Source: a virus
Taxonomy: Duplodnaviria; Heunggongvirae; Uroviricota; Caudoviricetes
IMG/VR virus record: IMGVR_UViG_2778261458_000001
Span: 1-18,705 of that record
Strand: one strand, 5' to 3'
Length of the DNA: 18,705 nucleotides
This document shows positions 8,205 through 8,666 of the stretch, in pieces. Both the position numbers and the translations under genes were made by a program. Numbering within the stretch: position 1 is the stretch's first letter; every line of letters begins with the position of its first letter. A model generated the notes under the pieces. The model saw only the letters and a program-made list of their open reading frames with translations. It was not told where the DNA came from and did no database searches.

Positions 8205-8236
8205 GAAAATAAAAACAAAAACCCGCCGAAGCGGGT
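8205..8236 (-). terminator. Rho-independent terminator at the 3' end of the hok transcript
   Basis: Stem ACCCGC/GCGGGT (8221-8236) with CGAA tetraloop, followed on the minus strand by UUUUGUUUUUAUUUU. Confidence 0.55.
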
Positions 8237-8305
8237 TAAGTGCGGGTGCGTTGAGGATGCCTGACACATCAGAGGTGGCGAGGGATTTCTCCCCCGCCTG
8301 GTCTC

Positions 8306-8461
8306 TTACTCCTCAGGTTCGTAAGCTGTGAAGACAGCGACCTCCGTCTGGCCGGTTCGGATTCGCACCTCGCAGAGGTCTTTCCTCGTTACCAGTGCCG
8401 TCACTATGATGGTTAAACAGATGACGATCAGGGCGATTAACATCGCCTTTTGCTGCTTCAT
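8306..8461 (-). CDS. hokD: Hok-family type I toxin (HokD/RelF-like)
   Basis: MKQQKAMLIALIVICLTIIVTALVTRKDLCEVRIRTGQTEVAVFTAYEPEE (51 aa), near-identical to remembered HokD; AAGGAG SD 9 nt upstream of ATG 8461. An in-frame upstream ATG at 8518 would add 19 residues. Confidence 0.9.
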   Translation of the reverse strand: MKQQKAMLIALIVICLTIIVTALVTRKDLCEVRIRTGQTEVAVFTAYEPEE

Positions 8462-8636
8462 AGCCTGCTTCTCCTTGCCTTTCGGCACGTAAGAGGCTAA
8501 CCTACATGTGTTCAGCATGGATTGAGCCTCAGATTAATGTTAAGCGTCTTGCCGGACGCGTGATGTTAACTGGGGCTTTTCTCTATCTGCCGTTGGTGTT
8601 CATGCCCGAGGCAGATAGCCTCAAGCACCCGCAGCC

Positions 8637-8666
8637 ATTCTACTTAACTTCCCATTACATCGCCAA
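8637..8666 (-). promoter_or_regulatory. Candidate hok promoter
   Basis: Minus-strand TTGGCG (8666-8661), 18-nt spacer, TAGAAT (8642-8637); predicted transcript to the terminator is about 415 nt, the size expected for hok mRNA. Confidence 0.35.

What the first reader, a model, noticed from the sequence alone, without database searches (positions are those of the whole stretch)
8205..8666. Hok locus with terminator, candidate promoter and an in-frame upstream start; antisense Sok not located
The Hok toxin frame is intact with a strong SD. A hairpin terminator lies at 8221-8236 and a candidate promoter at 8666-8637 predicts an mRNA of about 415 nt, as expected for hok. The 70-codon ORF from ATG 8518 is in the same frame as hok, which differs from my recollection that mok overlaps hok out of frame. 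I could not place a convincing Sok antisense RNA on the plus strand around 8480-8570, so whether the module is regulated or decayed is open.
Basis: partly seen in the sequence, partly recalled or inferred. Interest (0 to 1): 0.4.

Follow-up and report, generated by a model that had tools for sequence, protein, structure and literature searches.

The report
Intact prophage hok/mok/sok toxin-antitoxin module
This is an ordinary, complete hok/mok/sok toxin-antitoxin cassette in an E. coli lambdoid prophage; the "missing" Sok antisense RNA gene is present, and its tested portions match the experimentally characterised hokW-sokW locus.

Summary
The two open points both resolve to "normal locus".

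**Sok is present.** The gene lies on the + strand at 8510 to about 8580-8586. Its promoter is -35 TTGCCT (8475-8480), a 17-nt spacer, and -10 TAACCT (8498-8503).
- The position is homologous to the RefSeq-annotated sokC of K-12.
- The published sokW Northern probe matches 8510-8539 exactly.
- The published sokW promoter-kill mutation changes exactly this -10.
- The stretch 8458-8612 differs by one base (8562) from the hokW locus of Stx2 converting phage I.

**The in-frame mok is not an anomaly.**
- mok is in frame in K-12 mokC/hokC, in the hokW allele, in two other phages and in one IncF plasmid variant.
- It is out of frame in R100/R1-type plasmids and in phage Rac 442/2.

**The rest of the module is intact.**
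- Predicted folds reproduce the classical hok mRNA switch: tac-fbi and ucb-dcb in the full-length RNA, tac-ucb plus the target hairpin after 3' trimming.
- The locus sits in a Qin/Rac-like prophage, upstream of rem.
- Close relatives occur in about 4,700 of 5,426 complete E. coli genomes and in 101 phage records.

This is already known and of low interest.

The parts
8637..8666 (-). hok/mok mRNA promoter: -35 TTGGCG (8666-8661), 18-nt spacer, -10 TAGAAT (8642-8637)
   Evidence: Consensus scan. The -10 and its 7-nt distance to the mRNA 5' end are conserved in phage, K-12 and R1-type loci. The -35 lies at the edge of the conserved block and varies between relatives.
8212..8630 (-). Full-length hok mRNA, about 415-419 nt. 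The 5' end is inferred at G8630 and the 3' end in the T-run after the terminator.
   Evidence: The Rfam RF01794 model starts at 8630. Terminator. MFE is -169.5 kcal/mol, z = -7.1 against shuffles, with the 5' end paired to the 3' end.
8619..8632 (-). tac element (GCGGGUGCUUGAGG), the 5' end of the mRNA
   Evidence: It pairs with fbi in the full-length fold and with ucb in the 3'-truncated fold. It is invariant across the phage-type loci.
8572..8578 (-). ucb element (AAGCCCC, mRNA nt 53-59)
   Evidence: It pairs with the mok SD (dcb) in the full-length fold and with tac in the truncated fold. AGCCCC is invariant in all 7 aligned loci.
8493..8530 (-). mok translation-initiation region and Sok target hairpin: mok SD GAGG 8530-8527 (dcb), mok AUG 8518-8516, loop CUGAACA (mRNA 116-122) carrying a YUNR motif (CUGA)
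   Evidence: The hairpin appears in the truncated fold. Loop nt 116-121 are exactly complementary to Sok nt 1-6, read directly from the sequence.
8306..8518 (-). mok ORF, 70 codons, in frame with hok and sharing its stop codon
   Evidence: Same arrangement as RefSeq mokC/hokC of K-12.
8471..8476 (-). hok Shine-Dalgarno AAGGAG. On the other strand it overlaps the Sok -35.
   Evidence: Sequence. CAAGGAGAAG is invariant in all aligned loci.
8306..8461 (-). hok toxin ORF, 51 aa
   Evidence: Pfam HOK_GEF at 81.6 bits. PGAP names it hokD. It is 50/51 identical to K-12-type HokD, 46/51 to HokW and 100% to WP_168796021.1 in strain JP538.
8242..8256 (-). fbi element (CCUCAACGCACCCGC) in the 3' UTR
   Evidence: 14 bp with one bulge against tac, duplex -30.3 kcal/mol. 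The same pairing is found in 5 phage-type loci and, with compensating sequence, in R100.
8210..8237 (-). Intrinsic terminator of the hok mRNA: stem-loop 8237-8220 plus T-run
   Evidence: Shared by mEp460, PPompW and Rac 442/2, but not by the Stx2-phage hokW allele.
8475..8503 (+). Sok promoter: -35 TTGCCT (8475-8480), 17-nt spacer, -10 TAACCT (8498-8503)
   Evidence: The same architecture at the same place in 8 loci; R100 has TTGCGC-17-TATCCT. The published sokW promoter-less mutation (primers YO-421/422) changes TAACCTA to GAGCCGG at exactly this site, and the flanking primer sequences match the window exactly.
8510..8586 (+). Sok antisense RNA, 71-77 nt: a 5' single-stranded tail complementary to mok codons 1-3, a long hairpin, then GGGGCUUUUCUCUAU. 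The 3' end is uncertain (8580-8586).
   Evidence: Homologous to the annotated K-12 sokC, 16952-17010. The sokW Northern probe YO-592 is the exact complement of 8510-8539. The paper gives 71 nt of complementarity. Fold is -32.7 kcal/mol, z = -4.1.

Best explanation
The region is a complete hok/mok/sok type I toxin-antitoxin module of the hokD/hokW type. It is carried by a Qin/Rac-like lambdoid prophage of E. coli, between the replication genes and rem plus the nin-like genes.

**How it works** (mechanism inferred from the R1 paradigm; elements shown here by sequence and by predicted folds):
1. A sigma-70 promoter (8666-8637, - strand) makes a stable mRNA of about 415 nt.
2. That mRNA is translationally inert. 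Its 5' end (tac) pairs with the 3' fbi element, and ucb pairs with the mok Shine-Dalgarno.
3. Slow 3' trimming removes fbi. The 5' end then pairs with ucb, and the mok start region refolds into a hairpin that displays a YUNR loop.
4. The short Sok RNA is made from the opposite strand: promoter 8475-8503, transcript 8510 to about 8586.
5. Sok's 5' tail pairs with that loop and covers the mok SD and AUG. This blocks mok translation and therefore the coupled hok translation. The duplex is then degraded, partly by RNase III.
6. When Sok supply stops, through loss of the element or through prophage induction as reported for sokW, Mok/Hok is translated. The 51-aa Hok peptide damages the inner membrane.

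The relative reading frame of mok and hok is not constrained, and here mok is in frame.
For: **Toxin and leader.**
- Pfam HOK_GEF scores 81.6 bits.
- The Rfam hok-leader model scores 110.7 bits over 8630-8456.

**Sok gene.**
- Its position follows from alignment to the annotated K-12 sokC.
- Promoter, 5' tail, hairpin and U-tail have the same architecture in 8 loci.

**Match to the experimentally characterised hokW-sokW** (toxicity, antitoxin rescue, promoter-kill mutant and Northern detection of both RNAs).
- Nine primers or probes match the window exactly over their locus-specific parts, including the sokW probe and the sequences flanking the -10 mutation.
- The window stretch 8458-8612 corresponds to the sokW fragment cloned in that study. 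It differs from the Stx2 converting phage I hokW locus at only one base, 8562.

**mRNA switch (predictions).**
- tac-fbi pairing, 14 bp, -30.3 kcal/mol.
- The ucb-dcb to tac-ucb switch on 3' truncation.

**In-frame mok is normal**.

**Context and abundance.**
- Prophage context.
- Relatives in 4,716 of 5,426 complete E. coli genomes and in 101 phage records, annotated as MokW, HokD, gef or mok/hok.
Against: - No expression or phenotype data exist for this allele or strain.
- The Sok promoter matches consensus at only 7 of 12 positions, and the consensus scan did not call it.
- The -35 of the hok promoter lies outside the conserved block and varies between relatives.
- The Hok C-terminus differs from HokW at 4 of the last 7 residues.
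- NCBIfam Hok models score below their curated cutoffs (49.5 against 73).
- The RNA switch rests on MFE predictions only.
- Chromosomal hok/sok loci tested in earlier work did not mediate post-segregational killing, as quoted in the preprint read. The physiological output could therefore be weak.
Confidence: 0.9

Rival explanations
1. The locus is a silent relic, like the K-12 chromosomal hok loci. Its parts look intact, but it is not expressed or cannot kill.
For: - K-12 hokC has IS186 directly downstream.
- K-12-type hokD has lost everything upstream of window position 8475 to relBE.
- Earlier work, quoted in the preprint read, found that chromosomal loci did not mediate post-segregational killing.
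- The Sok and hok promoters are not strong consensus matches.
Against: - No insertion sequence, frameshift, stop codon or deletion affects any element.
- The leader and Sok stretch 8458-8612 differs at one base from the Stx2 converting phage I hokW locus. Published hokW-sokW primers and probes match the window exactly over their locus-specific parts, and that system is expressed and toxic when Sok is removed.
- tac, fbi, ucb and dcb are all preserved.
Confidence: 0.07
2. The mechanism is the same but the biological role differs. Rather than helping lysis on induction as reported for hokW-sokW, the module mainly stabilises the prophage by killing cells that lose it, or acts as an abortive-infection defence against other phages.
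For: - R1 hok/sok mediates post-segregational killing and reduces T4 plating, as summarised.
- The module sits at a moron-like position next to a low-GC insert.
Against: - The only direct experiment on this allele group showed a role in phage release after induction. No growth effect of the deletion was seen under normal conditions.
- No enrichment of hok near defence systems was found.
Confidence: 0.3
3. Because mok is in frame, the functional toxin here is the 70-aa Mok-Hok fusion made from ATG 8518. The hok ATG at 8461 would then be secondary.
For: A single ORF runs from 8518 to 8306 with its own SD (GAGG, 8530-8527). The same in-frame arrangement occurs in several relatives.
Against: - A close relative, Rac 442/2 (93% identical DNA), and R100 have mok out of frame with the same Hok, so the fusion cannot be required.
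- The hok SD and ATG are invariant.
- HokW expressed from its own ATG is toxic.
Confidence: 0.08

Closest known systems
hokW-sokW of Sakai prophage 5 / Stx2 phages (Takada et al. 2021, PMC8621323)
   Same: - The leader, mok start, Sok promoter and Sok RNA match. Nine published primers or probes match exactly over their locus-specific parts, and there is one base difference (8562) across 8458-8612 against Stx2 converting phage I.
- mok is in frame and 70 aa.
- Both sit in a lambdoid prophage.
   Different: - Hok differs at 5 of 51 residues, mostly at the C-terminus: TAYEPEE here against VDYESEK.
- The window has a canonical terminator directly after fbi, whereas the Stx2-phage allele diverges there.
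- The -35 region differs.
hokD (relF) of the K-12 Qin prophage
   Same: The Hok protein is 50/51 identical, and the downstream neighbours are the same: rem, a hypothetical gene and DUF968/ydfU.
   Different: The K-12 type has relBE in place of everything upstream of window position 8475. It therefore lacks the hok promoter, tac, ucb, mok and Sok. The window carries the complete, autonomous form.
hokC/mokC/sokC (gef) of E. coli K-12
   Same: Same order of elements, in-frame mok, and Sok promoter and transcription start at homologous positions. Identity is 78% across the locus.
   Different: - SokC is 59 nt. The window's Sok carries an extra 18-nt GC-rich extension at the top of its hairpin.
- The K-12 locus has IS186 just downstream.
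hok/mok/sok (parB) of plasmids R1/R100
   Same: - Same element set: promoter, tac, ucb, mok, Sok promoter overlapping the hok SD, fbi and terminator.
- The Sok promoter is TTGCGC-17-TATCCT against TTGCCT-17-TAACCT here.
- tac-fbi pairing is kept through different sequence.
   Different: - mok is out of frame in R100 (offset 58 nt) and in frame here (offset 57).
- Hok is 52 aa; HokW is reported as 44% identical to R1 Hok.
- One is plasmid-borne and the other prophage-borne.

Membership tests
[quoted passage not shown] | A Hok/Gef-family toxin ORF of about 50 aa with an N-terminal hydrophobic helix and the conserved RK-LCE motif | tested here: met
   Pfam PF01848 scores 81.6 bits against a cutoff of 22. 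Aligned with HokD, HokC, HokW and R100 Hok. NCBIfam Hok models hit, but below their curated cutoffs.
[quoted passage not shown] | A conserved hok mRNA leader of about 170 nt upstream of the hok AUG | tested here: met
   Rfam RF01794 scores 110.7 bits against a gathering score of 59, full model length, over 8630-8456 on the - strand. The model is in hok-mRNA sense, as shown.
[quoted passage not shown] | A mok ORF that starts upstream of hok, has its own SD and overlaps hok | tested here: met
   ATG 8518 with GAGG at 8530-8527, 70 codons. Its frame relative to hok varies within the family.
[quoted passage not shown] | A cis-antisense Sok gene whose promoter lies opposite the hok SD region and whose transcript covers the mok start region | tested here: met
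   Promoter at 8475-8503 and RNA at 8510 to about 8586. Supported by homology to the annotated sokC, conserved architecture in 8 loci and an exact match to the sokW probe and the -10 mutagenesis site.
[quoted passage not shown] | Long-range 5'-3' pairing (tac-fbi) that locks the full-length mRNA | tested here: met
   A 14-bp duplex at -30.3 kcal/mol, present in the global MFE fold. R100 keeps the pairing with different bases. This is prediction only.
[quoted passage not shown] | Alternative pairings: ucb-dcb in the full-length mRNA, tac-ucb plus the target hairpin in the 3'-processed mRNA | tested here: met
   MFE folds of nt 1-419 and nt 1-365 switch exactly in this way. This is prediction only, and the site of 3' processing is assumed.
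[quoted passage not shown] | An unstable Sok RNA against a stable hok mRNA, with killing when Sok synthesis stops | not testable with these tools
   Reported for the hokW-sokW allele, whose tested primer and probe sequences match the window exactly, and for R1. Not measured for this allele.

The most novel reading that the evidence does not exclude
On prophage induction, antiterminated read-through from the early-right operon (cro, replication genes, then nin/Q, all on the - strand like hok) runs head-on into the weak Sok promoter and shuts it off. That would explain the unexplained, RecA-dependent disappearance of sokW RNA and would make the module an induction-coupled lysis timer. Only the gene orientations are shown here. 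The published study leaves the cause of Sok loss open.
Probability: 0.2. Interest if true: 0.35.

Novelty: already known. Interest (0 to 1): 0.07.

Why it matters
It matters little beyond correct annotation. The locus is an intact copy of a well-known module whose near relative has been characterised experimentally.

Three practical points follow:
- PGAP annotates only "hokD" here and omits mok and Sok.
- The Rfam "sok" model reports the hok-leader strand rather than the Sok strand.
- The mok reading frame relative to hok is not a diagnostic feature.

Tried and rejected
- **Consensus promoter/terminator scan of 8100-8800.** It found no + strand promoter or terminator. The Sok -10 matches only 3 of 6 positions, and its terminator is a long bulged hairpin. 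The negative result reflects the scan's thresholds, not absence of the gene.
- **Rfam.** It reports "sok" on the - strand. I considered that Sok might be co-oriented with hok and rejected it. The model begins at the hok mRNA 5' end and ends at the hok AUG, and in K-12 it hits the strand opposite to the annotated sokC.
- **NCBIfam.** It gave only sub-threshold Hok and HokA hits, which did not help with naming.
- **Exact 58-nt Sok pattern against one genome per species.** It found only Shigella flexneri and a 431-bp contig in a Xanthomonas pisi assembly. This says little about distribution, because the E. coli representative genome lacks this allele.
- **In-frame mok as a frameshift or decay sign.** Considered and rejected, because several relatives are also in frame.
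- **Not run.** No structure prediction or large protein-database search was run, because identity was settled by sequence.

Full report
**Source and context**

The window is E. coli DNA. Positions 8150-8720 are 100% identical to the chromosome of strain JP538. The RefSeq annotation of that region is a lambdoid prophage of the Qin/Rac type. It carries an exonuclease gene, dicB, ydfA/B/C-like genes, CI and Cro, YdaT, replication genes, an alpha/beta hydrolase, hokD, rem, DUF968, RusA, DUF1133, a methyltransferase, tRNAs, holins, an endolysin and terminase. PGAP annotates only "hokD" at the finding and lists neither mok nor Sok.

**Checking the observation**

Each item is present at the stated place.
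- The 51-aa Hok ORF lies at 8461-8306 on the - strand and matches Pfam HOK_GEF at 81.6 bits.
- AAGGAG sits 9 nt before the ATG.
- The only terminator-like site in 8100-8800 is the hairpin 8237-8220 followed by a T-run.
- The promoter-like site TTGGCG-18-TAGAAT at 8666-8637 is found by the scan.
- Its -10 ends 7 nt before G8630, and the Rfam hok-leader model begins at 8630 (110.7 bits, E = 7.6e-25). The predicted transcript is therefore about 415-419 nt.
- The 70-codon ORF from ATG 8518 shares its frame and stop codon with hok.

**Locating Sok**

Three independent lines place it.
1. *Homology to K-12 sokC.*
   - RefSeq annotates sokC at 16952-17010 of K-12, on the strand opposite mokC/hokC.
   - Aligning that locus to the window (78% identity) puts the homologous RNA at + 8510 to 8586.
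   - It carries an 18-nt GC-rich extension at the top of the hairpin.
2. *Conserved architecture.*
   - I compared eight loci: the window, the hokW allele of Stx2 converting phage I, mEp460, Rac 442/2, PPompW, K-12 hokC, an IncF variant and R100.
   - In all of them a -35 overlaps the complement of the hok SD (CTCCTTGNNN), followed by a 17-nt spacer and a -10.
   - Transcription would start about 7 nt downstream of the -10.
   - The RNA has a 5' single-stranded tail opposite the mok start codon, a long hairpin, and GGGGCU followed by a U-rich tail.
   - In the window the promoter is TTGCCT (8475-8480), 17 nt, TAACCT (8498-8503). R100 has TTGCGC-17-TATCCT.
3. *Experimental anchors from the hokW-sokW study (PMC8621323).*
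   - That study showed HokW toxicity, rescue by sokW in cis and in trans, loss of rescue in a sokW promoter mutant, and Northern detection of both RNAs.
   - Its sokW probe YO-592 is the exact complement of window 8510-8539, and its hokW probe YO-597 equals 8473-8502.
   - The mutagenesis primers YO-421/422 match the window exactly on both sides and change TAACCTA (8498-8504) to GAGCCGG. This confirms the -10 assignment.
   - The window stretch 8458-8612 corresponds to the fragment cloned as pACYC184-sokW.
   - That stretch differs from the hokW locus of Stx2 converting phage I at one base, 8562 (G for A). The change turns an A-U pair into G-U in the Sok hairpin.
   - The paper gives 71 nt of complementarity, which would end Sok near 8580. 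The sokC annotation maps to 8586.

The predicted Sok fold has an unpaired 5' tail and a long hairpin (-32.7 kcal/mol, z = -4.1).

**The mok frame**

- R100, which carries the classical R1-type sequence found verbatim in more than 2,600 plasmids, has the mok ATG 58 nt before the hok ATG. There Mok is a 70-aa out-of-frame product.
- K-12 mokC and hokC are annotated with the same stop codon, at 210 and 153 nt.
- mok is also in frame (offset 57) in the window, the hokW allele, mEp460, PPompW and an IncF variant.
- Phage Rac 442/2, 93% identical to the window, is annotated out of frame.
- The frame therefore flips between close relatives. This fits the established view that mok translation matters and the Mok peptide does not.

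**The mRNA switch (predictions)**

- In the full-length RNA (8630-8212), nt 1-12 pair with nt 375-387. This is the tac-fbi pairing, GCGGGUGCUUGAGG with CCUCAACGCACCCGC, 14 bp with one bulge, -30.3 kcal/mol.
- In the same fold, AGCCCC (ucb) pairs with the mok SD (dcb).
- After removal of the last 54 nt, the 5' end pairs with ucb instead.
- Nt 101-138 then form a hairpin whose loop CUGAACA contains a YUNR motif. That loop is exactly complementary to the first six bases of Sok.
- This reproduces the folding pathway described for R1. R100 keeps the tac-fbi pairing with different bases.

**Distribution**

- Relatives of the 571-bp region occur in 4,716 of 5,426 complete E. coli genomes, with a median of two places per genome.
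- They also occur in 101 phage records, annotated variously as MokW, HokD, gef/phage maintenance protein or mok/hok.
- K-12-type hokD shares the hok-rem-DUF968 neighbourhood, but relBE replaces everything upstream of window position 8475. The window therefore carries the complete, autonomous form of that locus.
[quoted passage not shown] It also notes that mok and Sok are hard to predict automatically.

**Verdict**

This is an intact, ordinary hok/mok/sok module, an allele of the characterised hokW-sokW/hokD group. The mechanism is inferred from the R1 paradigm and from the hokW-sokW experiments. What is shown here is that every sequence element is present and conserved, and that the predicted folds behave as expected. 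Expression and killing were not tested for this allele.

The physiological role remains open between three options: aid to lysis on induction, prophage stabilisation, or phage exclusion. The cause of Sok loss on induction is unexplained in the literature. Head-on read-through from the early-right operon is a testable idea that rests only on gene orientation.

Novelty: already known. Interest: low.

Noticed in passing
window 8456-8630 (- strand); L002 502-654: The Rfam RF01794 "sok antitoxin" model is built in hok-mRNA sense. It starts at the hok mRNA 5' end and ends at the hok AUG. In K-12 it hits the strand opposite the RefSeq sokC ncRNA. Annotation from this model would put "sok" on the wrong strand and make it two to three times too long.
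   Followed up: yes
window 8320-8323 (- strand): The Hok Tyr47 codon is UAC followed by G, within UUACGAA. That resembles the tRNA-Arg(ACG) anticodon loop and TadA editing motif. A preprint (10.1101/2025.08.07.668861) states that hokC, hokD and hokE mRNAs are A-to-I edited to Cys at this C-terminal Tyr. In the global MFE fold the site is paired rather than in a loop.
   Followed up: partly
window 8900-10300: A low-GC island (32-40% GC against about 50% in the flanks) lies directly upstream of the hok promoter. It holds an alpha/beta hydrolase gene (9165-9938, + strand, weak Pfam Esterase hit) that is transcribed against the surrounding prophage genes. It looks like a moron insertion.
   Followed up: partly
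window 3678-3754 (- strand): ARAGORN calls a third tRNA, Arg(tcg), between the tRNA with anticodon CAT (Met by ARAGORN, Ile by PGAP) and tRNA-Arg(tct). Neither Rfam at gathering threshold nor PGAP lists it, so it may be a degenerate phage tRNA.
   Followed up: no
L010 (NZ_JPLE01000323.1, 431 bp): The exact 58-nt Sok promoter and 5' sequence occurs on a 431-bp contig of a Xanthomonas pisi DSM 18956 assembly. This is most likely E. coli or phage contamination of that assembly.
   Followed up: no
L005 434-647 (phage Rac 442/2); L003 (IncF pMTY1886): The mok frame flips between very close relatives. Rac 442/2 is out of frame although it is 93% identical to the window. An IncF plasmid variant of R1-type hok is in frame (71 aa) because its mok 5' part is one base shorter.
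   Followed up: yes
window 8161-8197 (- strand): Two overlapping promoter-like sites (TTGAAG-18-TAGAAT and TTGACG-16-AAAAAT) lie just after the hok terminator and upstream of rem (8089-7838). rem may therefore have its own promoter.
   Followed up: no
window 14444-16321 (+ strand): dicB and ydfA/B/C-like genes of the Qin-type immunity region are present, but no DicF sRNA hit appears at the Rfam gathering threshold. Two hypothetical genes occupy the ydfC-dicB interval.
   Followed up: no
L004 about 720-800 (Stx2 converting phage I): In the hokW allele of the Stx2 phage, homology ends immediately after fbi. That allele lacks the AACCCGCTTCGGCGGGTT terminator shared by the window, mEp460, PPompW and Rac 442/2, so its hok mRNA 3' end must be formed differently.
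   Followed up: no
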